DNA from: Eledone cirrhosa
Lineage: Eukaryota
Length of the DNA stretch: 64,000 nucleotides
NCBI GenBank assembly: GCA_964016885.1
Contig: OZ024757.1
Span: forward strand, 16,368,001-16,432,000
Direction: 5' to 3'
Both the position numbers and the translations under genes were made by a program. The notes under the pieces were generated by a model that was not told the DNA's origin, searched no databases, and was given only the letters and a program-made list of their open reading frames with translations. This document shows, in pieces, positions 1 through 55,452 of the stretch (positions are counted from its first letter, which is position 1; every line of letters starts with the position of its first letter).

Positions 1-383
1 GATATTAACAAATGGAAACTATATTTATAAAACCATATTTATTTCATTATACATATTTCAAGGACACGAAGTTAAATTATGGTGTGCTTTCATCAGATAA
101 AATATAATATAGAGCAGTTTTATAAATAAATATTGACATACCCTTAAAGAATGCAACCATTACTGTTGGAAGCTCTCGGATAGTGGAGTTATATCTTTAA
201 TTATACTATTAGGTAAGTTAGTATTGGATATTTAAAAAAAATATAAATACTATTGGATATTTTTCTTAAATATCCAATACTAACTTACCTCCACTATCCG
301 GGGGCTTCCAACAGTAATGGTTGCATTCTTTAAGGGTATGTCAATATTTATTTATAAAACTGCTCTATATTATATTTTATATC

Positions 384-385
<2 letters not shown>
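1..385. mobile_element. Penelope-like non-autonomous HHR element, family F1 copy 1 (inverted arrangement; may begin before window start)
   Basis: About 97-187 is the reverse complement of about 289-380; nearly identical to 19437-19610; ends in (TA)n. Confidence 0.75.
40..104 (-). ncRNA. Type I hammerhead ribozyme (F1)
   Basis: Minus strand reads TATTTTAT-CTGATGA-AAGCACACC..CGTGTCCTT-GAAA-TATGTA-TA/ATGAAATA; 8-bp stem I, stem II with 2 mismatches. Confidence 0.75.
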
Positions 386-682: not shown

Positions 683-685
<3 letters not shown>

Positions 686-919
686 GGAGGTGAGTTTTAT
701 TGTAGTACAATAAAGCAATGCAGATATCGGATAAGAAGCACTCTACAGTTGATATGTTGATATGTTGATTTATAACTGCACTATTCACAAGTGTTTTTTA
801 ACCTTCATATCATGTCTTCCTATTTTATCTGATGAAAACACAAATGTTATTGCATGATGATACTTGTTTTTGAAATGTGCATAATAAAATACATGGAACT
901 CTTTTAACCATCTTTTGAT

Positions 920-922
<3 letters not shown>
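683..922. mobile_element. Diverged F1 element copy 2 (inverted tail plus HHR segment)
   Basis: Reverse complement of 683-745 resembles the F1 tail at 43945-44012; HHR on plus strand; (TA)n on both sides. Confidence 0.6.
821..891 (+). ncRNA. Type I hammerhead ribozyme
   Basis: TATTTTAT-CTGATGA-AAACACAA..TTGTTTTT-GAAA-TGTGCA-TA/ATAAAATA; perfect 8-bp stem I. Confidence 0.8.
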
Positions 923-3094: not shown

Positions 3095-3131
<37 letters not shown>

Positions 3132-3134
3132 TAA

Positions 3135-3323
3135 AGAATTAATATATCTAGTAACATATATATACACAGATGCATACTTATGCTAGCAAATATATAGGTT
3201 TTGTCTTAGTAACTTTGTGGTTCAATGCATGGGGATGCAGAACAATAATATGAGAGACGTAAAATAAGAAAATTATAAAATTAACTTATAAGTAAGTTAA
3301 TTTTATAATTTTCTTATTTTACG

Positions 3324-3333
<10 letters not shown>
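3135..3333. mobile_element. Family F2 element with terminal foldback
   Basis: 41-bp inverted repeat 3248-3288/3293-3333; homologous to 35287-35514; within (TA)n. Confidence 0.75.
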
Positions 3334-6530: not shown

Positions 6531-6720
6531 AGGAACGAGTAGGATCCCGACGGCTGAGCTCAAGCCGTTTCGACGGCTAATTCTGGACAGAATTAGCCGT
6601 CGAGACGGCTTGAGCTCAACCGTCGAGATCCTACTGGTTCCTATTACCCACTCTACTACCCTAAGTATTGAGTACTTTGGTGCGTTATGGTCCATCTGGT
6701 TCCTTACCACATTTCTTTCG

Positions 6721-6722
<2 letters not shown>
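6531..6722. mobile_element. Family F3 element with GC-rich 112-bp palindrome
   Basis: 6531-6642 is a near-perfect hairpin followed by the F3 tail; (TA)n flanks. Confidence 0.75.
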
Positions 6723-8760: not shown

Positions 8761-8924
8761 TATCAAGTAAGTGATGCTGTAGCACTCTATAAACCTAACC
8801 CTAACCTTAACCATCAGATATACTCTACCACGTTTGATATGATAGCAAACTAATGTTCAAACACACTCCGATGAAAAATACACCGAGAACGGAGGCGATA
8901 ATGTCATATATATGTGTTTGTGTG

Positions 8925-8959
<35 letters not shown>

Positions 8960-9021
8960 TAAATCATGTCCTTAGAATTATTAGATAAAATATATACCGT
9001 TTCTTCTATATACCGTTTCTT

Positions 9022-9105
<84 letters not shown>

Positions 9106-9263
9106 AACACATATATATGACATTATCGCCTCCGTTCTCGGTGTATTTTTCATCGGAGTGTGTTTGAACATTAGTTTGCTATCATGTCAAACGTGGTAGA
9201 GTATATCTGATGGTTAAGATTAGGGTTAGGTTTATAGAGTGCTACAGCATCACTTACTTGATA
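8761..9263. repeat. About 165-bp inverted repeat with TTAGGG-like repeats
   Basis: 8761-about 8925 is the reverse complement of about 9097-9263. Confidence 0.9.
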
Positions 9264-9671: not shown

Positions 9672-9821
9672 ATGTATTTGTATATATATGTACGTATATG
9701 TACGTATCTCTCTCTCCCCATCTCTCTCTTTATATTTATATATATATATATATATATATAGAAAGAGAGAGAGGGGGAGAGAGAGATACGTACATATACG
9801 TACATATATATACAAATACAT

Positions 9822-10361: not shown

Positions 10362-11459
10362 CTATACAAACCGGTTCACCCTTAATAATTGTTTCTACTT
10401 TTGGCACAAGGCCAGCAATTACCCAGTATATATATATATACATGGCCTGCCTGCCCAGCCAGTGGGATGGCGTTATCTTATGGCTAAAACAGCACGACGT
10501 GCTGTGACCAGCGGCGCCGAATGGACGCCCGACGGACTCGTCGGTCAAGGTGATATGTGTGTGTGTGTGTGTGTGTGTGTGTCAGGATAGAACCAGTTTA
10601 AAACTAGTTAGACCATTATTCAACAGAGTACTCGATACTTGAGGTAGCAGAATATGCCTATATTATAAAGTGTTTGGACCCAACAGTTGAGCTCTTGCCG
10701 TTTCAGCAGCTAGATCTGATATATATGTGTGTGTGTGTGTATGTGTGTGTGTATGTCTGTGTGTTTGTGTGTTGTGTGTGTGTAGTAAAATATATGTGTA
10801 TGAAAAAAATGAAAAAGATAAACAGTGCTCAATCAGATATGACAGGTGATATATTATTCATATTCATACACGGACCAAAAGCGCTACCTAAGTTTTCGAG
10901 GACCAATATGGGCCATATTTCCAGATTGTAAGAGAAATCAAAATTGTCACCTAGTTTCCACGTGCTTGTAGACTATGTCACAAATTTCATCCCTACACAC
11001 ACACACGCGTCTGTGTGTGTACGCTCCTGAAGTTGAGGGGTATTAAAATAATCAACCCATTTGTGGTGCCTCCCCCCTATTGGCGATTTCAATTGTTAAA
11101 TTTGTGTTTCAATATTTTTACACGATTGTATGTAAAATCCTCGGCATCTGTCCTTGTTTTGTCCCCTTTTCTTGTGCGCCCTTGTGGCTAATAAAGAAAT
11201 ATATCTATGTGTATGCAGATATATATGTATATCTATGCGTATATGTAAGCATATATGTACATATATGTTCATATAAGTCTGTAAATAAATGTGTCTATAT
11301 CTATATCTATACATACGTGTATACATATATATATGTGTATAGGCATATAAGTGAGTGTATATGTTTGGGTGTGTGTGTGTCTGTCTAGGAGCTTATGCCC
11401 CCAACTTGTCAAATAACTGCGATGAATCTGTTAAGTGTGTGTATATATAAATAAAATGG

Positions 11460-13063: not shown

Positions 13064-13748
13064 ATACCGATGATGGTTGGAAGATCACTGATGAAGGACC
13101 ACTTTATTCATATGTAACCCATTTGCAACTCCGCAGCACGTTTATTCTCATATTTACACATATTTTTTTCTCCCGCTGTGACCCGTCTATTTCATTCTTA
13201 CTGCCTCCTCTTTCTCTGTATCTTTACCCTCTCTAACAGTCACTCTCTCTATTAGCCTCTTCCTCGCCCTTCACTCACTCACTCTCTGTTACTGCCTCTC
13301 CTCCTCCTCCTCCTCCTTCCCGTTTGACCTGTGCGTAATTCTTTTCTTTCGCACGCTTGGCCAGGCCGGTCGGCATATTTTCTCTCTCTCGTCTACGATT
13401 TCACAGAACTTATGTTTACCGAATTCACAGACTGGACCCCTTCTTCCTCCCGTTAGACCTGTGCGAAATTCCTTCCTTGCTCACATTTCAACCACGTTTG
13501 ATGGTCTTTATTCTCTCTCGTTCACGATTTCACCGAACTTATATTCATGGAAATTTTTGGACTTGACTCGCTCTTCCTCACTTTTCGTTGCTTCACCATC
13601 TTTGTTTGTTTACACTCTCGCTGTTCCCTTTATTTACATGTCCCAACGACTTTCTTTAGCCGTTGCTCGCACCAACTGGAGGTATATGGTCTTTAAAGCG
13701 AAGAAATACCGATGCTGGTTGGAAGATCACTGATGAAGGACCACTTTA

Positions 13749-13755
<7 letters not shown>
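13063..13755 (+). mobile_element. 642-bp unit plus 51-bp terminal direct repeat inserted in (TA)n (family F4)
   Basis: 13063-13113 equals 13705-13755 with one mismatch; ends merge into (TA)n. Confidence 0.8.
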
Positions 13756-13788
<33 letters not shown>

Positions 13789-13930
13789 CGGGTTCAATCA
13801 GGGGTAATTACAGTAAGTAAGGCACTCAATACATAGCAGAGTATAAATATTTAATATAGAAATGGGTTTTACAGGACTAAATTCTTTTTCATTCAAAAGA
13901 AATCATCATATATATATATATGTGTGTGTT

Positions 13931-19344: not shown

Positions 19345-19436
<92 letters not shown>

Positions 19437-19475
19437 GATATTAACAAATGGAAACTATATTTATAAAACCATATT

Positions 19476-19540
19476 TATTTCATTATACATATTTCAAGGA
19501 CACCAAGTTAAATTATGGTGTCCTTTCATCAGATAAAATA
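19476..19540 (-). ncRNA. Type I hammerhead ribozyme (F1)
   Basis: Reverse complement of the HHR at 19688-19752. Confidence 0.85.
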
Positions 19541-19687
19541 TAATATAGAGCAGTTTTATAAATAAATATTAACATACCCTTAAAGAATGCAACCTTAACT
19601 TTTGGAAGCTCCCGGGTAGCTTCCAACAGTAATGGTTGCATTCTTTAAGGGTATGTCAATATTTATTTATAAAACTGCTCTATATTA

Positions 19688-19752
19688 TATTTTATCTGAT
19701 GAAAGGACACCATAATTTAACTTGGTGTCCTTGAAATATGTATAATGAAATA
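19688..19752 (+). ncRNA. Type I hammerhead ribozyme (F1)
   Basis: TATTTTAT-CTGATGA-AAGGACACCA..TGGTGTCCTT-GAAA-TATGTA-TA/ATGAAATA; perfect 10-bp stem II. Confidence 0.88.
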
Positions 19753-20204
19753 AATATGGTTTTATAAATATAGTTTCCATTTGTTAATATCGTATGTTTA
19801 CTCCAATAATTTGTTGAGTACTTTATATCAGTTACAAAAATATTTTCTTGTTGTATCCCAACAATTTAAATAGAACTTCTACATATATATATAATTATAT
19901 ATATAAATGAAAGGTATATAATTATATATATATCGTATATAATTATATATATCGTATATAATTATATATATATATATATATATCGTGTTTGACATGAGAG
20001 GTTCTGAAGGGAAGAGAAACATGGTGATCTCTAATGTCAACGCCGCCATACATGGTTATATATTCGACAGTGAGACGCAGGAGTTACTAAAGAAATACGC
20101 CATTGATATTTTCTCTTTCATTCGCAGCATGATTGCCACCACATCACTGAGGTGTGTGATGATAGAAAGGCTATCTAAGATTGATAGATATATCGTTGTT
20201 GTTG

Positions 20205-22938: not shown

Positions 22939-23811
22939 GGGTGCGGTGGGGTGATGGTGGGAGTGATATTAGTGATAGTGGTAGTGTTATTAGTAGTGGT
23001 GGTGGTAGTAGTAGTGGCGTTTATAGTAGTGGTGGTGGTGGTACTGGTATTAGTAGTAGTTGTGGTATTAGTAATGGCGGTGGTGGTGCCAATTGCATGG
23101 TGTTGTGGTGTGAAGGTGTGAAGAGGTGGTGTATTGTCGCAGTGAGGGGAGATGACAGTGATACAACAACAACCGCAACAACAATATCAATATCAACATC
23201 AACAGTAACAGCATCAACAACAACAACGTATTATATTATAATCTATAAAACATATTAACTAGACCGTAAGATGAAAGCAAGTGTCAAAGAAAGATGGCTG
23301 CCGTAGATTTTTAATGTTTTTTGTTCAAAATATTTGTTATGTAAATATCTCTATTGTTGTGTGAACTTTATAATTTCCTTATCAGATTATATAGTAATAT
23401 GATAACTATTATATATCACTGATACCATTTAAATTGGGATATCGTTATTGATATTATAAACTGAAACACTTTATGAATGAATAGCAAATTCGACAGAATT
23501 CGACACACACATACACTCGCACACATACATACTTATAATATATGTATATTTATATATATATCTCAACCTGATTAGTTCTATCGTTACTTTGGTATATATT
23601 GTATGTTAGTTTCGCCTACCACAATGTTCGATTTGTCAAGCTATTTAAACGTACTCTGAGGTCCTATCTTATCGAGTGCTTTGCTAACTCATCAGTTCAT
23701 ATAAGTAGGCCGAATTTACTTGGAAACCGCCAGTGATTCGATTTTACTGATTTCCAATGATATATATATATATATATATATATAGTGTATATATATGCCT
23801 ATATGTGTATA

Positions 23812-34459: not shown

Positions 34460-34476
34460 TATATATATAAAAAAAA

Positions 34477-35083
34477 GAGTACTCAATGCTTAGGGTAGTA
34501 GAGTGGGTAATAGGAAAAGAGTCACGACCCCGGCGGCTGAGGTCCGGCCGTTTCGACAGCTAGATCTGAAGTTTGACTAATGAATCATCAGTCGACCTTC
34601 AGACACCCGGACAGACGATCGTCCTCGAAGCTCACGAGCCACGTATGATCCCTCAAGGACATAGGCGTAAATTACTCCATCCAATGGAAAGTCATTACTA
34701 AGTTTAAGCCATAGGTAAATGGAAATTCGTCTTGTGGGCTGTGCGTTGAAGAAAGGATCAATATCCTGTGAGGTTTACGCAATAGCGCTTGTCTGAATTC
34801 AAGGAAAGAACTTTTTTCACGTTGTCCAAACGTATGGAAACACTTATTACATAATTACAAAGCTCCATAACTTGGATAATTTATTCCGAGCATCCACAAT
34901 GATATCCCCTACATCGATCTATTATGGGTTTACCTCCCCCAGGAGAAGTGACTGTTTCTACACATGCGAATTCGTACAGTTACGTATCGTTTTCCGTACA
35001 ACTTCATTTATACCGAGCTGATGACCCGAATAAGGTGCAACAATTGTTCTCGGTAATGGTGAATTAACTGTTGTGGAACTACT

Positions 35084-35172: not shown

Positions 35173-35514
<342 letters not shown>

Positions 35515-36362: not shown

Positions 36363-38105
36363 TACTACTCAGAGCTGTCCAACCATAGAGCCACAGAAGG
36401 TCCAGAAGTACTGAAAGTCCCTCCAGCAACCAAAAACGACAACTACCCCATCCTTCGCGAAGAAGTGGAAGCAGCTGTGAAATCGCTCAAGAAGGGGAAG
36501 TCTGCAGAAGTGGATATCTTAGCGGAGCTGGTGCGGGCTGGGGGAGCAGCACTGATAAGCGCCCTACTGACCATCGGCAACAAGATCTGGCAGACAGGGA
36601 AATGACTAACAACATGTCACTTATCATCACCCTCCTCAAGAAAGCAACCTACAATGATGCCAATATTATGGTACCATCAGCCTCATCAGCCATCCAAGGA
36701 AAGTCTGAAGCCGCAAGCAGAAAAAAATTGTCATTGAAGAGCAAGCAGGCTTCCGACCAGGGCGAAGCGCAACAGAGCCGATCTTTCAACCTGAGGAGAA
36801 TATGCGAAAGGTACTTCCAACATCAACAGGACCTCTTCCACGTCTTCGTGGACTTCAAGAAGGCGTTCGGCGTAGTTTGGCACACAGTATTGTAGGCCAC
36901 AATGAAGCTGTACAACATCAATGGTAACTTGATCAGGATGTCCTCAGTGCTGGACTAACCTATAAACACCAACGAGGAAGCCTAATTTTTTAAAATATAT
37001 TTATCATTAGTTTTTATTCACTAAATCAATGAATGTTCTGGAAATTGCTGTCGAAACGTCAAAAGCTCAGCCATCGGGTGCTGACTCTCTACAATTGATC
37101 AGGCTGATACGGAGCCTATATTGCAAAGCCACCAGCGCAGTCTATTTAAACAACAACGTTGGGGACTGGTTCAGCACCACAGCTGGAGTACGACAAGGCT
37201 GTTTGCTCTCTCCAACTCTCTGCAACATCGTCTTAGAGAGAATTATGACAGGCGCACTGGAATACTATGAAAGGACAGACATCATTGGCCGAAAGACTAT
37301 GAACTTGCGTTTTGCCAACAACATAGATAGTCTATCAGGGAAGGAAGAGGGGCTAGCCAACTTAGTGGAACATCTTAACAAGACTCCTACCTCCTATGTC
37401 ATGCAGATCAGTGCAGAAAAGACGAAAGTGATGACCAACAGCACCAACGGCATCAACACTGACATCAGGGTCAACGACGAGAAACTAGAGTGCGTCAGCA
37501 GTTTTTTCAAATACTTGGGGGCACTCATTTCAGATGAAGGGTCTAAACCTCGCTAGATCTGCCCAGACTAACGCAGCACTTCAAAACTTAAAACAACCTG
37601 GAATGACAAAAATTTAGTCCTCAGCTCAAAGATCAGACTGATGCACTCTCTGGTCATGTCCATATTCTTGTATTCCTGTGAGTCTTGGTCAATAACAGCA
37701 GATCTGGAGAGAAGAATACAGGCTACGGAGATGAGATGACTCAGAAATTCCTTGGCATCACCTACAGAGACCGCATATCCAATGAGGAGGTGCGACACAG
37801 AATTTGGCAAGCCATCGGGCCCTCCAAAGACCTGCTGAACATTGTAAAAAAACACAAATTGAGATGGTCCGGGCACGCGACAAGATCTTCAGGGATTGCC
37901 AAGACTTTCCTGCAGGGAACAGTACAAGGAGGAAGGAAGGGAGTCAGACAGAAAAAAATATGGGAGGACAACATTTCGGAATGGACAGGCATGAGGCTGG
38001 GTGCAACCATGTGGAGGACGAAGAGGCGAGAGGAATGGAAGGAGCTGGTTATCAGGTCATCTGTGGCGCCCCAACGGTCCACCAGACTACGGAACAGATG
38101 TGATG
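36357..38105 (+). pseudogene. Decayed RTE-clade LINE reverse transcriptase region and 3' end
   Basis: Motifs EEVEAAVKSLKKGKS, FVDFKKAF, GVRQGCLLSP, NLRFAN, FKYLGA, LRWSGH; several frameshifts and stops; 157-bp insertion. Confidence 0.92.
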
Positions 38106-38213
38106 ATATATATATATATATATTTATATACCAGGTATCACACCATATGAAATATAATTATAATACATATATCACATCATATCAAATAACATATTTCTTG
38201 TATGCCTGGACTC

Positions 38214-38762
38214 GTTCTTCTTCTTCGCCCACTTATTCCTGGGCGGGTCGTTGGGGCAGAGTCTTCAAACACTCCTTCAAGCGGGTCCTGTCAGAAGCAA
38301 CCATTTCCCACTGATACGGCTGAATCGCCAAGTGAAACTAGCCGAGCTCATGGATGTTAGCCCATGATCTTACTCGAGGTCTACTCCTGGGTCTCCTACT
38401 GGTTAGTTTTTTCCCATAAAATCCGTATTCAGCGATTCTTTCCTGCGACATTTTAACCACATGTCCACAATATCGGAGCTGTGATGTCTCAATTCGGAGA
38501 AGTAGCGGCTCAATCTGGAGAAACTCTCTGATCTCCGAGCTACGCACTCTATCGAGTAACGCGTTACTCCAAAGACTCTTGGAAGGAATCCCATTTCGGC
38601 CGCATGTATTCGTGATCGTATTATTTCAGTCATTACCCAAGATTCCTGACCATAGGTAAATGTTGGCACGAATACCGAATTGAAGATAGCGAGTTTGGCG
38701 TTTACACCTACCTCCCTTCTTCTGAGTACCGAATGTTGAATCTGGGGCATTAGTGCACCAGC
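38214..38762 (-). pseudogene. Decayed RTE (Rex3/Expander-like) LINE 3' fragment
   Basis: KLAIFNSVFVPTFTYGQESWVMTE..RIHAAEMGFL, IEPLLLRIETSQLRYCGHV; (GAA)n tail. Confidence 0.88.
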
Positions 38763-39623: not shown

Positions 39624-39660
39624 AATGAAAAATGGCGTGCTGTGTTGTTGCAAATGTGGT

Positions 39661-39808
39661 ATATAAATAAAATGAAGAATTAGAAATAGAAGCCAGGACT
39701 ATCCATCATCAGTGGTCTACTAACCGTCATAGGTATTTCTTCGCATACGGCTAGTAGACCACTGATGATGGATAGTCCTGGCTTCTATTTCTAATTCTTC
39801 ATTTTCTT

Positions 39809-39813
<5 letters not shown>
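39661..39813. mobile_element. Family F4 fragment as inverted duplication
   Basis: 39661-39726 is the reverse complement of 39747-39813; contains the F4 motif on minus. Confidence 0.75.
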
Positions 39814-39889
<76 letters not shown>

Positions 39890-40355: not shown

Positions 40356-42275
40356 GTGTGTATGCATGGTATCTAGACAGTATATTACATGGTGTTTATT
40401 AGGTATTATTAATAAATCAGGAGATTGCAGTAGGGAAAATATCTGCTTTGTTATTTATTGCCATATAATTAACAGTTTCGTAGTTGTTGATAGCGGATCA
40501 AACAACGTGTTACATGTCCAAACAAACATTGATTTGGCGGCCATTACGATTTTCTGATTATATAGTCGTAAGTCGTTGCATCCTATATCGAAATTCGATT
40601 GTCTATAAATATTGAGGTATTAGTGATTAGGTAGGAATGTGTGTATATATGTGTGTGTGTGTGTGTTTGTGAATGTATACACTCGTATGGATTCATATAT
40701 ATATACATATATACTAAAATATTGCCCGTATTTATTGCTACGTAAGTATCAATCGTAAGTTTTATATACTAATAAAATATACACTTATGTATATAAGTAG
40801 ATATATTATATATAATAGATAAATGAACGTCCGTTACTTACGACGATGAATATTCAAATTGTGAAACACAGCGCAACGGCCTACTCGTTCAATTAATCTG
40901 TAAGGGGCTGCGCTTTCCTCTGGGACGCGTACCTTTAACATATACCACGGGGAAATTCAGGGGAACAGTGCGAACATAAATATATATATATATGTGTAAT
41001 CTTAATATTCGAGGTCTGTGTGTAATCTGCTGGCTGGACCGGATTGTAAATAGACCAATGACAAGGTGTTGATAAATATCTAAGTTCAAAATACAAAGAT
41101 TGTCGCGTAAGCATGATAAATATATTTCAAGGAGACAACCCTAACGGTTGTCTTGTTTTCAATCTACATTTTCGATATTTTTTTTTTTTTTTGTCTTTAC
41201 TGGACCTTTTTTCTATTTCTCCATTGTGATCCTGTCTCTATTTTGTACTCCTGAAGAAGGGCTTAAGCCCAATACGTCAAACTGTCTTCCCTCTTTCGAA
41301 TATAAAACGTGAAACTAAGAAGACGTGTTGTTGTCACCTTGAACTATATATATATATATATATATATAAACACCATTTATATGAGGCTGTTTACCAAGGG
41401 GAAGAACTGGTGGATCCGGTTGGAATACGATGATGCACTAATTTAATTAAAGCACTCAACGTTATGCAAATCATTAAAAACTCATTAAAAACAACAGAAA
41501 GCCGGACTGGAAATTTACTTTACAATTTTAATTCCGTGAAAGTACTATACATATTTCGATGACCCAGACTTTTCATCTGATCATTATGCAAGATTTAGAC
41601 GATTTCATCAGGTGTTAATTGCGGAATTAGTTCCAAAAGACAACAGGATTACGTCAAACACAAACAGAGAATAGAAAATAGAAAGTAGAGGATCAATTCA
41701 ATTCGGTGACAGCCTTCCAGTGTTGTAGTTGTGTCAGACGATCCCCGAATATATATATATATGTCTTACTCAAAAGGTTAACGTACCACCCGGTCCTGGA
41801 ATCGAACTCGCAACCTCACGAATGTGAATCCTATTCTCTAACCAATAAGCGACGCATGTTTACATGTTATACCATCTATTGCTCCAAACATATTAGCTGG
41901 CTTCAGGAATTCGTTGGTGTTTTAATCAGGCCTTCCTTAGACAGACATATACAACCACAAATACTGCAGACGTAGATTAACTCAATCTACATCTAGAATT
42001 GTGTGAAATATGTGGCATATTTTATATATACATTCATACATACATACATAAACACACATGCATATATACATACATTCATACAAACAAACATGTATGCACG
42101 CATAGATGCATACACACGCAGGAATACTTACATGCGTTTATTCATTCATACATACATGAATACATACATACTCGTATACACACACACACACACACACACA
42201 CACGTACACATAGACTTTGCTTACGTATAGCGTATCTATTTGAATAGTAGTTTTACTGTTTTCAACTAAAAACAC

Positions 42276-43710: not shown

Positions 43711-43732
43711 TATACAGATATATATATATATA

Positions 43733-44012
43733 CAATGATATTAAATAAATGGAAACTATATTTATAAAACCATATTTATTCTATTATATATATTTCAAGG
43801 GTACCAAAAACTTTGGTACGCTTTCATCAGATAAAATACAAAGAGTATTTTATAAATTTTGACATAGCCAAGGAAACTATACCTTATCAGTTGAATTTTT
43901 CTTGGTAGTTTAATATCATTGAATATTTACTCCAGAAAACTGTCGAGTGCTCTTAATCAGTTATAAACATTGATATTTGTTGTATTTCCAACAAATTAAA
44001 TATCCCTTCTAC
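43733..44012. mobile_element. F1 element copy 4 (inverted HHR segment plus forward tail)
   Basis: 43737-43860 resembles 1-135; 43909-44012 resembles 19783-19882; 13-bp inverted overlap. Confidence 0.8.
43777..43838 (-). ncRNA. Type I hammerhead ribozyme (F1 subfamily)
   Basis: TATTTTAT-CTGATGA-AAGCGTACCAAA..TTTGGTACCCTT-GAAA-TATATA-TA/ATAGAATA. Confidence 0.85.
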
Positions 44013-44949
44013 TTATATATATATATATATATATTTATTGAACTAAACAACCCTATCTCGGTACAGATTTCAGTGTAAATGAAATGGCTTGGAAATTAAT
44101 TATCTCCCCAGCTAGAAATCTTCGCACTCGAGAATAAAGCATTAAGCACTTTTTATCCTCTCGTTATATTTTATGATTTTCGACAATAATGCAACGTAAT
44201 ATAAATAGCAACAATAGAGGAAATTTTCAGTTAACTGTTAAATATGAAGTATTTGATCCTATACATTTGAAATATGTTTAATGTAAACTGTAGTGTAGAT
44301 ATAAAATGTCCTAAATAAACCTGTACGAACATTCTATGAGATTCCATTATAATTTATACTATTTTTATACACATATAGCCTCTATTCCATATAATAATAC
44401 ACTGGATTATTTTAGGTGCAAAGCCTAAGTATATATACAATCATATATATCAATGTATATATTGTATATTTATATATATTTGTGTATGTTCTTCTGCTAT
44501 AATTATTTAATTTATTTCATGTTCTGCTATAATTATTTAATTTATTTCATGCCAATTGAAGGAGCTACTTTATAACAAGGTACGAGGGTATTATTATTCT
44601 TTCATTTGTGTGTAAACACCAACTATGTATATATATCTATGTATGTGTGTGTATGTGTGTGTGTGTATGTGTGTGTGTGTGTGTGTGCGTGTGTGTGTGT
44701 GTGTGCGTGCGTGTGTATGGATATATGTGTATATATATATATATTTATATATGTCTGTATATCTGTACGTACTTACGTACGTATGTATGTATTTATGTAG
44801 GTGTGTATGTATCTATGTATATACGTATGTATGTATGTATGTATGAACGAATGAATGTGTGTGTGTGGGTGTGTGGGTGGGTGTGTGTGTGTGATTGTGT
44901 GATTGTGTGCAGGTATGAGTGTCATTGCATGTGTGGATCTGTGTTTTGC

Positions 44950-48099: not shown

Positions 48100-48161
<62 letters not shown>

Positions 48162-48228
48162 AAGGTTTAGCAAATAATGAAAAAGTTTCAAAATAAATTT
48201 TAAAAAATTGACTTTACCTACTATAGTT

Positions 48229-48311
48229 ACCTTTACCGATCGGTTTCGAATCCCAAAAATAAACGGAGACCATACGGCCTTCGTTGCAAAGAAAGATTCT
48301 CGTCAGAAGGT
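48229..48311 (-). ncRNA. Type I hammerhead ribozyme, array copy 1
   Basis: ACCTT-CTGACGA-GAATCTT..GGGATTC-GAAA-CCGATCGG-TA/AAGGT; intact core. Confidence 0.92.
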
Positions 48312-48713
48312 TCTTTTCATTCGAAGAATATAAAATTCTTGAATTTAAATTACGAACTAGCGCTATCCAAAACTGTTCCTGAGATGAGAGTGAATGAAGT
48401 GGAATCAATTTTTTCAAGGGCCGAAGTAAAGATAGAGGCAGAGGGAGGTAGGTCAAACCGGCCGCAACTATCACTAGCAGCAGTCGGAACGACCCAATTT
48501 GTCTCTCAACAATAGAGGAGAGTAGTAATAATAGGATATGTGTTCCTTCACGCACTAGGCGCTAAGGGACGCATGTATTGTCCAACCAAATGCCAATGTG
48601 GTTCAATGGCAGGTTAATAAATTAACGAGCCAGAACATATATAAACAAGGTTTAGCAAATAATGAAAAAGTTTCAAAATAAATTTTAAAAAATTGACTTT
48701 ACCTACTATAGTT

Positions 48714-48796
48714 ACCTTTACCGATCGGTTTCGAATCCCAAAAATAAACGGAGACCATACGGCCTTCGTTGCAAAGAAAGATTCTCGTCAGAAGGT
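48714..48796 (-). ncRNA. Type I hammerhead ribozyme, array copy 2
   Basis: Identical to copy 1, offset +485. Confidence 0.92.
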
Positions 48797-49198
48797 TCTT
48801 TTCATTCGAAGAATATAAAATTCTTGAATTTAAATTACGAACTAGCGCTATCCAAAACTGTTCCTGAGATGAGAGTGAATGAAGTGGAATCAATTTTTTC
48901 AAGGGCCGAAGTAAAGATAGAGGCAGAGGGAGGTAGGTCAAACCGGCCGCAACTATCACTAGCAGCAGTCGGAACGACCCAATTTGTCTCTCAACAATAG
49001 AGGAGAGTAGTAATAATAGGATATGTGTTCCTTCACGCACAAGGCGCTAAGGGACGCATGTATTGTCCAACCAAATGCCAATGTGGTTCAATGGCAGGTT
49101 AATAAATTAACGAGCCAGAACATATATAAACAAGGTTTAGCAAATAATGAAAAAGTTTCAAAATAAATTTTAAAAAATTGACTTTACCTACTATAGTT

Positions 49199-49281
49199 AC
49201 CTTTACCGATCGGTTTCGAATCCCAAAAATAAACGGAGACCATACGGCCTTCGTTGCAAAGAAAGATTCTCGTCAGAAGGT
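49199..49281 (-). ncRNA. Type I hammerhead ribozyme, array copy 3
   Basis: Identical, offset +970. Confidence 0.92.
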
Positions 49282-49683
49282 TCTTTTCATTCGAAGAATA
49301 TAAAATTCTTGAATTTAAATTACGAACTAGCGCTATCCAAAACTGTTCCTGAGATGAGAGTGAATGAAGTGGAATCAATTTTTTCAAGGGCCGAAGTAAA
49401 GATAGAGGCAGAGGGAGGTAGGTCAAACCGGCCGCAACTATCACTAGCAGCAGTCGGAACGACCCAATTTGTCTCTCAACAATAGAGGAGAGTAGTAATA
49501 ATAGGATATGTGTTCCTTCACGCACTAGGCGCTAAGGGACGCATGTATTGTCCAACCAAATGCCAATGTGGTTCAATGGCAGGTTAATAAATTAACGAGC
49601 CAGAACATATATAAACAAGGTTTAGCAAATAATGAAAAAGTTTCAAAATAAATTTTAAAAAATTGACTTTACCTACTATAGTT

Positions 49684-49766
49684 ACCTTTACCGATCGGTT
49701 TCGAATCCCAAAAATAAACGGAGACCATACGGCCTTCGTTGCAAAGAAAGATTCTCGTCAGAAGGT
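49684..49766 (-). ncRNA. Type I hammerhead ribozyme, array copy 4
   Basis: Identical, offset +1455. Confidence 0.92.
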
Positions 49767-49876
49767 TCTTTTCATTCGAAGAATATAAAATTCTTGAATT
49801 TAAATTACGAACTAGCGCTATCCAAAACTGTTCCTGAGATGAGAGTGAATGAAGTGGAATCAATTTTTTCAAGGGC

Positions 49877-49916
<40 letters not shown>

Positions 49917-54415: not shown

Positions 54416-54420
<5 letters not shown>

Positions 54421-55013
54421 TAAAAAGGAAAAGAAAATGCTGATAAATTTTTCTCAGTGAAAAATAGTTTAATTAGGAATAAGTATAAATTAGTAATAAG
54501 TATTAGTTACTATTCAGTTTTAGTTTTAAGTTCTTACAGGTTGAGCATTTCTTATGCTTTTCAAAAATAATTTTGAGATAGAGTGCTCGTGATTTTTTGC
54601 TCTAATCTGATCAGTTTTAAACATTCACGTGACTTCTATGACCAATCAAAATTGTTTTGACTACAAGAATTTTTGCAACACGAATTGGCGCGAAATTTAT
54701 AGCGCTTATTCACGTGACATTCAACAACCAACCAAATCTTAATGCCTCCCAAGCCACTTTTTTCACATAAAACAGGAAGAATTTCCAAAACTGATCAGAT
54801 TAGAGATAAAAATCACGAGCACTCTATCTCAATTTTTTTTTTGAAAAGCTTAAGAAATGCGCAACCGGTAAAAACTTAAAACTAAAACTGAATACTAACT
54901 AATACTTATTACTAATTTATACTTATTCCTAATTAATCTATTTTTCACTGGGAGAAATCTGTCAGCATTTTCTTTTCCTTTTTACTAATATATCACAACT
55001 CGTGTGTCACACC

Positions 55014-55020
<7 letters not shown>
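54416..55020. mobile_element. Foldback element with about 200-bp inverted arms in (TA)n
   Basis: 54416-54618 is the reverse complement of 54787-54990. Confidence 0.85.
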
Positions 55021-55047
<27 letters not shown>

Positions 55048-55054
<7 letters not shown>

Positions 55055-55399
55055 AAGTTAAATAAAAGTCAAATGATTAAAATTTGACTCCAGTTCCTCA
55101 GTAAATTAACAACCCAACAAGGAACTGGGCATATCAGAGTATTGACAATATTATACACCTAAACAACATATGTACTTGTCTATACCATACTAATTCAAAC
55201 TGCCTGAAGAGGTCACAGCCAAAGATGGCTGTCACTGAAATATATATAGCAGTAATAAACGAAGCTAAATTTTAATCATTTGACTTTTATTTAACTTTAT
55301 TTTACACTACTCCGGAGTAACCAAACCAACCTGCGCACTTCGTCGAGTGCTCCAGCCTGCATACTGAGGTGTTGGTATACAACCAACATAAACTCAAAA

Positions 55400-55400
<1 letters not shown>
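55048..55400 (+). mobile_element. HHR-bearing element with 38-bp inverted terminal duplication
   Basis: 55048-55085 is the reverse complement of 55267-55304; HHR lies inside. Confidence 0.8.
55199..55253 (+). ncRNA. Type I hammerhead ribozyme
   Basis: ACTGC-CTGAAGA-GGTCACAGCCA-AAGA-TGGCTGTCACT-GAAA-TATATA-TA/GCAGT. Confidence 0.9.

Positions 55401-55452
<52 letters not shown>

What the first reader, a model, noticed from the sequence alone, without database searches (positions are those of the whole stretch)
43733..44012. Twin-priming signature at self-complementary (TA)n targets
Seen: F1 copies at 683, 19436 and 43733 each have the distal tail (ending CTAC next to AT repeats) on one strand and the HHR segment on the opposite strand, ending at a similar site about 30-45 nt past the HHR. 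Both 3' ends face outward into AT repeats. The overlap is 13 bp here, 175 bp at 19436 and not visible at 683. Established: L1 twin priming creates 5' inversions, and Penelope-like elements show inverted pLTR extensions. Inference: because (TA)n is palindromic, both broken ends can prime at two fixed AT patches on the element RNA, making inversion the normal product.
Basis: partly seen in the sequence, partly recalled or inferred. Interest (0 to 1): 0.7.

Follow-up and report, generated by a model that had tools for sequence, protein, structure and literature searches.

The report
Two-ended Penelope insertions in TA repeats
These back-to-back DNA pieces sit in TA repeats, carry a hammerhead-ribozyme motif and end at two fixed points; they are likely RNA copies of a Penelope-type jumping gene, likely written from both ends of one DNA cut, a layout already known, and a small predicted RNA hairpin just behind one end point would explain how the copying enzyme picks its start.

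Summary
At 43733-44012 an inverted arm with a minimal type I hammerhead ends at site p (52 nt past the cleavage site) and an opposite-strand tail ends at q (CTAC), both in (TA)n, overlapping 13 bp. Copies at 683, 19436 and a missed one at 1-384 are also inverted. Reads and contigs from public runs show sharp ends at p and q and scattered inversion joints. The layout is the published Penelope-like (PLE) inverted pLTR plus one-sided tail; (TA)n targets, hammerhead and end spacing match the Hydra clade, and a decayed Hydra-type ORF lies at 34577-34867. Best reading: both cut DNA ends prime reverse transcription at fixed RNA sites, as a lizard PLE does in vitro. It works like twin priming but is not the L1 form: p is fixed and arms can overlap ~180 nt. 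p lies 6-8 nt before a covarying bulged hairpin in 7 of 7 testable insertions, with modest in-phase TA microhomology (none in this copy). That the palindromic target causes inversion is unsupported. This scan reported the two-armed layout and the hairpin before on other DNA of this genome.

The parts
43733..43909 (-). Copy C, p-arm: inverted, 5'-truncated element RNA copy ending at p next to (TA)n
   Evidence: contiguity of this arm with the tail in other copies from loose ends at 43909 and 43918
43777..43838 (-). Minimal type I hammerhead motif (core C3 at 43830, cleavage nt 43785; helix III of 2 bp with palindromic loop); cleavage activity untested
   Evidence: fold z -2.2 but MFE does not form stem I
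43909..44012 (+). Copy C, q-arm: starts 13 nt before p, carries the 91-nt tail, ends CTAC
43929..43948 (+). Predicted bulged hairpin (4-bp lower stem, 2-nt 3' bulge, 3-bp upper stem), 7 nt after p
43718..43732 (.). (TA)n target, left
44014..44034 (.). (TA)n target, right
19436..19616 (-). Copy B, p-arm with hammerhead (19532-19484)
19610..19882 (+). Copy B, q-arm: hammerhead 19696-19744, p at 19792, hairpin 19800-19819, tail to CTAC
   Evidence: fold z -4.8
683..921 (.). Copy A, sister family: inverted tail (683 to ~790, minus) and hammerhead arm (~812-921, plus; core 829-883)
1..384 (.).
55050..55415 (.). Copy D, other family, same plan: 36-bp inverted p-arm, hammerhead 55204-55248, hairpin at 55309, 113-nt tail
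6532..6721 (.). Copy E1, family E, same plan: inverted p-arm, hairpin at 6650, 80-nt tail
34577..35083 (+). Decayed C-terminal end of a Hydra-type PLE ORF (34577-34867, three stops) followed by a pLTR with a core-mutated hammerhead ending in (TA)n; joined head to head to an inverted family-E arm (34470-~34569)
3126..3329 (.). Copy J1 (and J2 at 35289-35510): short inverted arm plus tail with the same bulged hairpin in a compensated form (GTTC/GAAC)
48159..49878 (-). 485-nt tandem hammerhead array (retrozyme-like, 4 cores), not inverted; its 3' end lies 7 nt before the same hairpin

Best explanation
The copies are head-to-head pairs of hammerhead-bearing arms set in (TA)n that end at two fixed points, p and q; they are likely reverse transcripts of the 3' (pLTR) end of a Hydra-type Penelope-like RNA, likely made when both ends of one cut in (TA)n primed copying. 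Steps: (1) the GIY-YIG endonuclease would cut both strands in (TA)n (inferred; both-strand cutting and extension shown in vitro for Poseidon_Ac); (2) each 3'-OH end would prime cDNA on the element RNA at p or at q, about 90 nt further 3' (fixed ends shown; priming inferred); (3) p would be set by the RT binding a bulged hairpin 6-8 nt downstream, helped by 0-7 nt of TA pairing (spacing shown, role inferred); (4) the two antisense cDNAs, stopped at variable points, would be joined at their 3' ends, often at a short palindrome of the template (variable junction shown; joining inferred). Copy C is the case where the q-primed cDNA stopped 13 nt past p, as expected if it ran into the p-primed hybrid on the same RNA; B, Z and D need strand displacement or a second RNA.
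For: 4 of 4 F1 copies in the window are inverted with 3' ends outward. Reads: X1 contigs leave the element into AT-alternating sequence at 19785/19790/19795 (7, 60, 29 contigs) and at 19893 (69); X13 6443 reads at 19785 and 1199 at 19790, X14 7478 and 1380; organism B (X5) shows the same ends; summed X1 depth drops from 3.64 M at 19756-65 to 0.23 M at 19796-805 (24 of 623 loose-end rows shown). Strand-change or skip joints fall at many places (15 of 32 rows shown; 8 rows). p is 6-8 nt before the hairpin in 7 of 7 insertions with read-through, 3 of them (J1, J2, the 485-nt array) not used to define the hairpin. RNAalifold finds the hairpin unaided on 8 tails, 4 of 8 pairs with compensatory change; 0 of 500 shuffles reach the pairing or covariation score. 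Both arms of B carry G at 19706, seen in 1% of X1 depth and 5% of X13 reads: same template or same source. Hydra clade has (TA)n targets and canonical hammerheads (PMC8557442); its consensus ends lie 30-48 nt (10 of 24) or 88-153 nt (11 of 24) after cleavage, like p (38-54) and q (138-167). A Hydra-type ORF end is in the window. PAc cuts and extends both strands and starts at two internal sites (PMC11167929).
Against: No RT or endonuclease sequence is attached to any F1 copy (only 154 nt upstream of the ribozyme are known; profile search found only 34577-34867), so the partner is inferred. Copy C has 0 nt microhomology at p (4 of the first 5 letters match). PAc starts at sites not homologous to the cut DNA. 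The hairpin is individually weak (z +0.1 to -2.0; MFE in 4 of the 8 aligned tails), 3 of 11 tails folded were left out of the alignment, and the loose descriptor hits shuffles 9.6 times per window against 16 real. The excess of q-arms starting within 15 nt of p is weak and post hoc (4 of 18, P 0.018; 3 of 16 without window copies, P 0.06), and joint orientation is not given by the tool. Shared G19706 could be gene conversion. What lies beyond q in the RNA was not seen.
Confidence: 0.7

Rival explanations
1. Fold-back (self-priming): one target-primed cDNA from q snaps back on a template palindrome and copies itself as far as p; asymmetric copies such as C and A come from later central deletion.
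For: Junctions of B, Z, E1, J1, J2 sit on palindromes or hairpins; both arms of B share a rare variant; self-priming was proposed from junction palindromes in rotifer PLEs (PMC3846280).
Against: In C the p-arm has 164 nt absent from the q-arm and the q-arm 91 nt absent from the p-arm; read joints include gapped pairs; the 34470-35083 insertion has arms from two different RNAs; fold-back does not say why p sits 6-8 nt before an RNA hairpin.
Confidence: 0.12
2. Strict L1-type twin priming on one RNA, with the self-complementary (TA)n ends base-pairing to two AT patches; the palindromic target is what makes inversion the normal product.
For: Copy C has exactly the L1 geometry (13-bp overlap); single arm E0 starts 11 nt before p; in-phase microhomology at p summed 30 nt over 8 insertions against 8.8 or 15.4 expected (P 5e-5 and 0.003, copies not independent); weak clustering of junctions near p.
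Against: Overlaps of ~180 nt (B) and q-arms starting 217 nt before p (D); copy C has no perfect microhomology; inverted pLTRs exist with non-microsatellite targets (PMC3846280); no poly(A) end; 3 single-orientation insertions of related families (539-629, ~10575-10720, 48159-49878).
Confidence: 0.1
3. Two independent insertions into the same (TA)n array in opposite orientation.
For: TA arrays are hot targets; some read joints involve a 3' terminus (19785/19795, 19785/19893, 19712/19890).
Against: No TA run at the junctions of A, B, C, D, E1, Z or 34470-35083; both arms belong to one family in all but one case; shared rare variant in B.
Confidence: 0.03
4. MITE or fold-back DNA transposon with terminal inverted repeats targeting TA.
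For: B and 54418-55019 look like TIR elements; TA flanks.
Against: Inverted lengths 13, 36, ~130, ~180 bp and none; one-sided tail; hammerhead core; scattered junctions in reads.
Confidence: 0.02
5. Assembly or long-read artefact at self-complementary (TA)n.
For: The window has perfect palindromes centred on (TA)n (8761-9263, 9672-9821, 39660-39814); C's junction is not bridged by a listed read.
Against: F1 inversions have TA outside, not at the centre; arms differ by 4 substitutions and an indel; inversion joints occur in independent short-read runs.
Confidence: 0.02

Closest known systems
Hydra clade of C-terminal EN+ Penelope-like elements (Craig et al. 2021, PMC8557442; section 11, passages, supplement parts 2, 52, 53 read)
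   Same: (TA)n targets, type I hammerhead near the 3' end, inverted 5'-truncated copy (noted for Penelope-13_HM), 3' ends in two distance classes after the ribozyme; by eye the same bulged hairpin is in the printed Hydra-2_Amil and Hydra-2_Ajap 3' ends and twice at the Hydra-1_Ajap 5' end.
   Different: F1 copies seen carry no ORF; tail is 89-91 nt (80-113 in sister families), not the 30-40 nt stated for PLEs; no sequence match of the F1 ribozyme context was found in that supplement (one 13-letter motif, supplement cut when stored); the hairpin is not mentioned in the passages read.
Poseidon_Ac (PAc) in vitro transposition (Frangieh et al. 2024, PMC11167929; parts 1-2 of 4 read, supplements not seen)
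   Same: Both strands cut and extended; AT-rich targets; two internal start sites that bound the tail; RNA 3' of the start needed.
   Different: PAc starts are adjacent, in an AC-rich stem-loop, and not homologous to the target; here they are ~90 nt apart, p is 6-8 nt before a hairpin and shows short in-phase TA homology; PAc paper does not reconstitute the inverted junction in the parts read.
L1 twin priming (as described in PMC2912911, passages)
   Same: Two DNA ends prime on element RNA, the cDNAs are joined head to head, 3' ends face out; copy C has this geometry.
   Different: L1 uses the poly(A) end plus a variable internal site and inversion is a minority product; here the internal site is fixed, there is no poly(A), arms often overlap widely and inversion is the majority.
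Rotifer Penelope inverted pLTR + tail (Arkhipova et al. 2013, PMC3846280; passages)
   Same: Head-to-head inverted pLTR, one-sided tail, palindromes at the junction.
   Different: Ordinary 8-10-bp TSDs, low copy number, explained there by self-priming on an antisense template.
Animal non-LTR retrozymes (PMC7229834, passages; bioRxiv 10.64898/2026.07.22.740005, part 1 of 5)
   Same: Non-coding, type I hammerhead with weak palindromic helix III, high copy, proposed PLE dependence; the 485-nt array in this window is of this kind and shares the hairpin.
   Different: F1 was not seen in tandem; no sign of a circular unit.

Membership tests
Hydra-clade PLE | Canonical type I hammerhead in the pLTR | tested here: met
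   activity not tested
Hydra-clade PLE | Insertion into (TA)n | tested here: met
   read loose ends
Hydra-clade PLE | Inverted 5'-truncated copy and one-sided tail | tested here: met
   4 of 4 F1 copies inverted; tail in 3 of 4, 89-91 nt where measurable
Hydra-clade PLE | Single ORF with RT (DKT, RWK) and C-terminal GIY-YIG with CxCX5C, CxxC, CxH | tested here: inconclusive
   no coding remnant in F1 copies, but only 154 nt upstream of the ribozyme are known; such an ORF end exists in another element at 34577-34867 whose homologue P0127 shows these motifs
Hydra-clade PLE | RT phylogeny inside the clade | not testable with these tools
   no RT in F1; no genome held
L1-type twin priming | First primer at the RNA 3' terminus (poly(A)) | tested here: not met
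   no poly(A) at q; whether q is the RNA end is unknown
L1-type twin priming | Second primer anneals internally by microhomology at a variable site | tested here: not met
   site p is fixed; microhomology present on average but 0 in copy C
L1-type twin priming | Both cDNAs made on the same RNA molecule | tested here: inconclusive
   shared rare G19706 in B for; chimeric arms at 34470-35083 and wide overlaps against
L1-type twin priming | Microhomology at the inversion junction | tested here: inconclusive
   about 1 nt in C, 6 nt in B, hairpins in Z, E1, J by eye; no null computed
L1-type twin priming | Target-site duplication | not testable with these tools
   hidden in (TA)n; flanks were skipped as repeats
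MITE / TIR DNA transposon | Constant-length TIRs with fixed interior | tested here: not met
Non-LTR retrozyme | Tandem units each with a hammerhead | tested here: not met
   F1 not tandem in the window; upstream of Z does not match B or C tail ends (1006 and 317 of 2000 shuffles); no unit-length 'goes back' joint among 15 of 32 rows shown
Non-LTR retrozyme | Circular RNA intermediate | not testable with these tools
   no RNA run available to lay

The most novel reading that the evidence does not exclude
Hydra-clade PLE reverse transcriptase, a telomerase relative, uses a conserved bulged hairpin as a ruler: it seats the cut (TA)n end on a 2-7-nt TA patch 6-8 nt upstream of the hairpin, and as a dimer loads both DNA ends at once, on one RNA or on two different RNAs. 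That would explain the PLE inverted pLTR and one-sided tail, and link coding elements, short families like F1 and retrozymes to one cis signal.
Probability: 0.4. Interest if true: 0.72.

Novelty: new variant of a known kind. Interest (0 to 1): 0.5.

Why it matters
How PLEs make their tandem and inverted ends is stated as open in PMC8557442. A high-copy non-coding family (6251 contigs of one run lay on 290 nt) with two sharp ends and a candidate start signal gives thousands of natural products against which to test models, and names an RNA element and spacing that can be moved or mutated in the existing in vitro assay. It also warns that such palindromic copies can be mis-annotated as MITEs. 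The layout itself is known, so the gain is mechanistic, not a new class of element.

Tried and rejected
No whole genome is held, so genome-wide mapping was replaced by two read layings. Rfam over the window listed only microsatellite-driven miRNA matches among the 150 of 376 rows shown; repeat finder was swamped by simple repeats. A 34-base F1 pattern found 0 stretches in metagenome contigs, so no longer F1 copy or partner ORF was retrieved. No RNA holder listed. Word-indexed homologue search and Pfam found nothing for the decayed ORF end; Pfam on 5 long homologues gave only a sub-threshold GIY-YIG hit in 1 of 5. First microhomology test with J offsets one base off was discarded and redone; an earlier version without J and the array was not significant for hammerhead families alone (P 0.085 / 0.41). 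Circular-unit idea for F1 rejected: upstream of Z vs tail ends 1006, 317 and 36 of 2000 shuffles. The covariance model from 8 tails found its 8 training copies and one new site (13815-13846, E 0.018); J1 scored only E 4.7 and J2 and the array were not listed. A second hairpin behind q, reported by earlier scan notes, could not be tested for F1 (no read-through) and was not found in the 485-nt unit by my descriptor. Read pile-up ends at 19714, 19863-66, 43858, 43986, 43997 in RAD runs were not interpreted (library and likeness cut-offs). Sequences printed in the paper's supplement were compared by eye only, not aligned.

Full report
What is there. The window is from an animal genome rich in microsatellites (33.7% GC; 239 (TA) arrays); no whole genome is held. 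That it may be a cephalopod is my recollection from its SINE-like repeats and was not tested. The finding (copy C) reads: (TA)n, then a minus-strand arm 43733-43909, then a plus-strand arm 43909-44012 ending CTAC, then (TA)n. The minus arm has a minimal type I hammerhead with an 8-bp stem I and a 2-bp helix III closed by a palindromic loop, the form described for metazoan elements in PMC4209133 (passages). The descriptor gave 10 hits in the window and 0 in each of 30 shuffles. Copy B (19436-19882) shows the uninterrupted order on its right arm: ribozyme, site p 49 nt after the cleavage site, 89-nt tail, CTAC (q). Reads confirm that order for the C subfamily: loose ends at 43909 and 43918 continue into the ribozyme arm on the same strand (9 and 8 contigs of X2). 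So each insertion is reverse-complement X[b..p] joined to X[b'..q]. Overlap is 13 bp in C, about 180 in B, none in A. A is a distant sister family. A fourth copy, Z (1-384), is inverted but has no q end.

Termini and junctions in public data. Laying four runs on 19606-19895: 6251 contigs of X1, 63 of X5 (another organism label), 30420 and 33258 RAD reads. Loose ends turning into TA repeats pile up at p (X1 7, 60 and 29 contigs at 19785, 19790, 19795; X13 6443 and 1199 reads; X14 7478 and 1380) and at q (X1 69 contigs, X5 3); 24 of 623 rows were shown, and RAD counts are not copy counts. Summed X1 depth falls 16-fold across p and stays at most 0.87 M in the tail against 3.64 M before p; tails diverge faster, so the ratio is not a count, but p ends look commoner than q ends, as copy Z suggests. 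Strand-change joints are scattered: 13 opposite-strand rows of 15 shown (32 in all), and 3 opposite-strand plus 5 skip rows (14 further joints were dropped by the tool at repeats). After setting aside 3 rows that involve a 3' terminus and 2 probable duplicates, 16 read junctions plus B and C remain; 4 of 18 have the q-arm starting within 15 nt before p (P 0.018; 3 of 16, P 0.06). This is weak and post hoc. No listed piece bridges C's own junction.

The same plan in other families. Of 103 islands between TA arrays I tested 16 for terminal inversions; 8 of 16 had one (Z, B, C, D, E1, J1, J2 and 54418-55019). Counting hammerhead- or hairpin-bearing insertions, 9 of 15 are inverted (Z, A, B, C, D, E1, J1, J2, 34470-35083), 3 are single-orientation (539-629, ~10575-10720 by eye, the 485-nt array) and 3 are undetermined (41369-41748, 23562-23759, 13787-13907). 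Inversion is thus the majority, not the rule.

What fixes p. Eight tails that I picked by a shared motif (of 11 folded) align to a bulged hairpin which RNAalifold predicts unaided, with compensatory changes in 4 of 8 pairs; 94% of cells pair, 0 of 500 shuffles reach that or the covariation score, slid controls reach 24-56%. The hairpin is weak alone and a loose descriptor hits shuffles 9.6 times per window against 16 real hits, so the count is not the evidence; position is. In 7 of 7 insertions where p is defined by a terminal arm and read through in another arm, p lies 6, 7 or 8 nt before the hairpin, including J1, J2 and the 485-nt array, which were not in the alignment and use a compensated lower stem. 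The spacer is AT-rich and in phase with the flanking array: perfect microhomology 3 (B), 0 (C), 2 (D), 3 (E1), 4 (J1), 5 (J2), 7 (array); at family level P is 0.001-0.006 against random phase and 0.016-0.056 against best phase.

One template or two. Both arms of B carry G at 19706, where 99% of X1 depth and 95% of X13 reads have C: same RNA, same source locus, or later conversion. In contrast 34470-35083 joins, with no TA between, an inverted family-E arm to the 3' end of a coding element. That coding part (34577-34867, three stops) has 1593 homologues at E up to 0.001; the longest shown, P0127, has DKT, YRDD, CxCX5C, YIG, CxxC and CxH, the marks given for the Hydra clade in PMC8557442 section 11. 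One old case is a hint that two RNAs can be used.

Mechanism. Most likely (0.7): a Hydra-type RT/endonuclease cuts both strands in (TA)n and extends both ends on element RNA from p or q; the cDNAs stop at variable points and are joined head to head. Shown here: fixed ends, variable junction, hairpin spacing, modest microhomology. Shown elsewhere: PAc cuts and extends both strands and starts at two internal sites that bound the tail, not homologous to the target (PMC11167929). Inferred: the partner enzyme, the role of the hairpin, the joining step. Fold-back copying (0.12) fits the junction palindromes and was proposed in PMC3846280 but cannot give C or A without a later deletion. Strict L1 twin priming caused by target palindromy (0.1) fits C, but not the wide overlaps, the fixed p, or inverted pLTRs with ordinary TSDs in rotifers.

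Comparison with what is known. An inverted 5'-truncated copy and a one-sided 30-40-bp tail are standard PLE features (PMC8557442; PMC3846280). Hydra families insert in (TA)n and carry hammerheads. From that paper's tables I computed that consensus ends lie 30-48 nt after cleavage in 10 of 24 families, 88-153 in 11, 63-70 in 2 and 355 in 1, matching p and q. By eye, the hairpin is in printed coral and sea-cucumber consensus ends. F1 works like a Hydra-clade pLTR; membership as an autonomous element is untested because no ORF is attached. It works like twin priming but fails two defining features of the L1 form. Six literature searches listed no paper that describes the hairpin or a two-ended priming model for PLE inversions; the library lacks most subscription journals, and I read only passages or parts of the papers named.

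Earlier notes of this scan. Look-ups show that other windows of this genome were already read as two-armed Penelope-type insertions with two fixed starts, and that the bulged hairpin was reported, in pairs. I had found the hairpin and its spacing; their agreement is not independent evidence. The circular-template lead was tested for F1 and not supported; the second hairpin could not be tested for F1 and was not found in the 485-nt unit.

Verdict. Real, high-copy and largely explained by known PLE biology; the new content is the fixed 6-8-nt register of the internal end to a conserved hairpin, the long tail, and read-level support for two sharp ends. New variant of a known kind; interest 0.5.

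Noticed in passing
window 48159-49878: 485-nt tandem array (about 3.5 units, 1 difference between neighbours) with a type I hammerhead in each unit, flanked by (TA)n, not inverted; retrozyme-like; ends 7 nt before the same bulged hairpin with 7 nt of TA microhomology.
   Followed up: partly
window 34470-35083: Head-to-head chimera of a family-E arm and the decayed 3' end of a Hydra-type coding PLE, no TA at the junction; possible use of two different RNAs in one insertion.
   Followed up: partly
window 6532-6721, 10575-10720, 34470-34569: All three longer family-E copies are 5'-truncated at about the same point inside hammerhead stem II; a fixed RNA 5' end or an RT stop.
   Followed up: no
window 251-384: Right arm of copy Z jumps from the 5' strand of stem I straight to the p end, removing the whole ribozyme (about 95 nt); left arm has a 24-nt insertion relative to the right.
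   Followed up: no
window 54418-55019: 572-bp imperfect palindrome (80%) in (TA)n with a classic 32-nt one-sided tail and 6 nt TA microhomology, without hammerhead or bulged hairpin by my descriptors; probably another PLE clade.
   Followed up: partly
window 19610-19616, 43905-43909: Three of five F1 arms stop within about 5 nt of the same upstream site (CCAC/TATCC), a possible RNA 5' end or RT pause.
   Followed up: no
window 8761-9263, 9672-9821, 39660-39814: Near-perfect palindromes centred on (TA)n arrays, the opposite geometry; local fold-back duplications or assembly artefacts.
   Followed up: no
window 13064-13751: Island with a ~50-bp direct repeat at both ends containing CTGATGA, flanked by (TA)n; may be a pLTR-ORF-pLTR remnant read on the minus strand.
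   Followed up: no
window 41369-41748, 23562-23759, 13787-13907: Further TA-flanked tails or hammerhead-like segments of other families; orientation of their second halves not resolved.
   Followed up: partly
window 36389-38314: Decayed LINE reverse transcriptase ORF pieces (RTE-like by recall), unrelated to the finding.
   Followed up: no
reads laid on 19606-19895: Joints that go back 23 or 48 nt from p, i.e. short direct restarts right after the p end.
   Followed up: no
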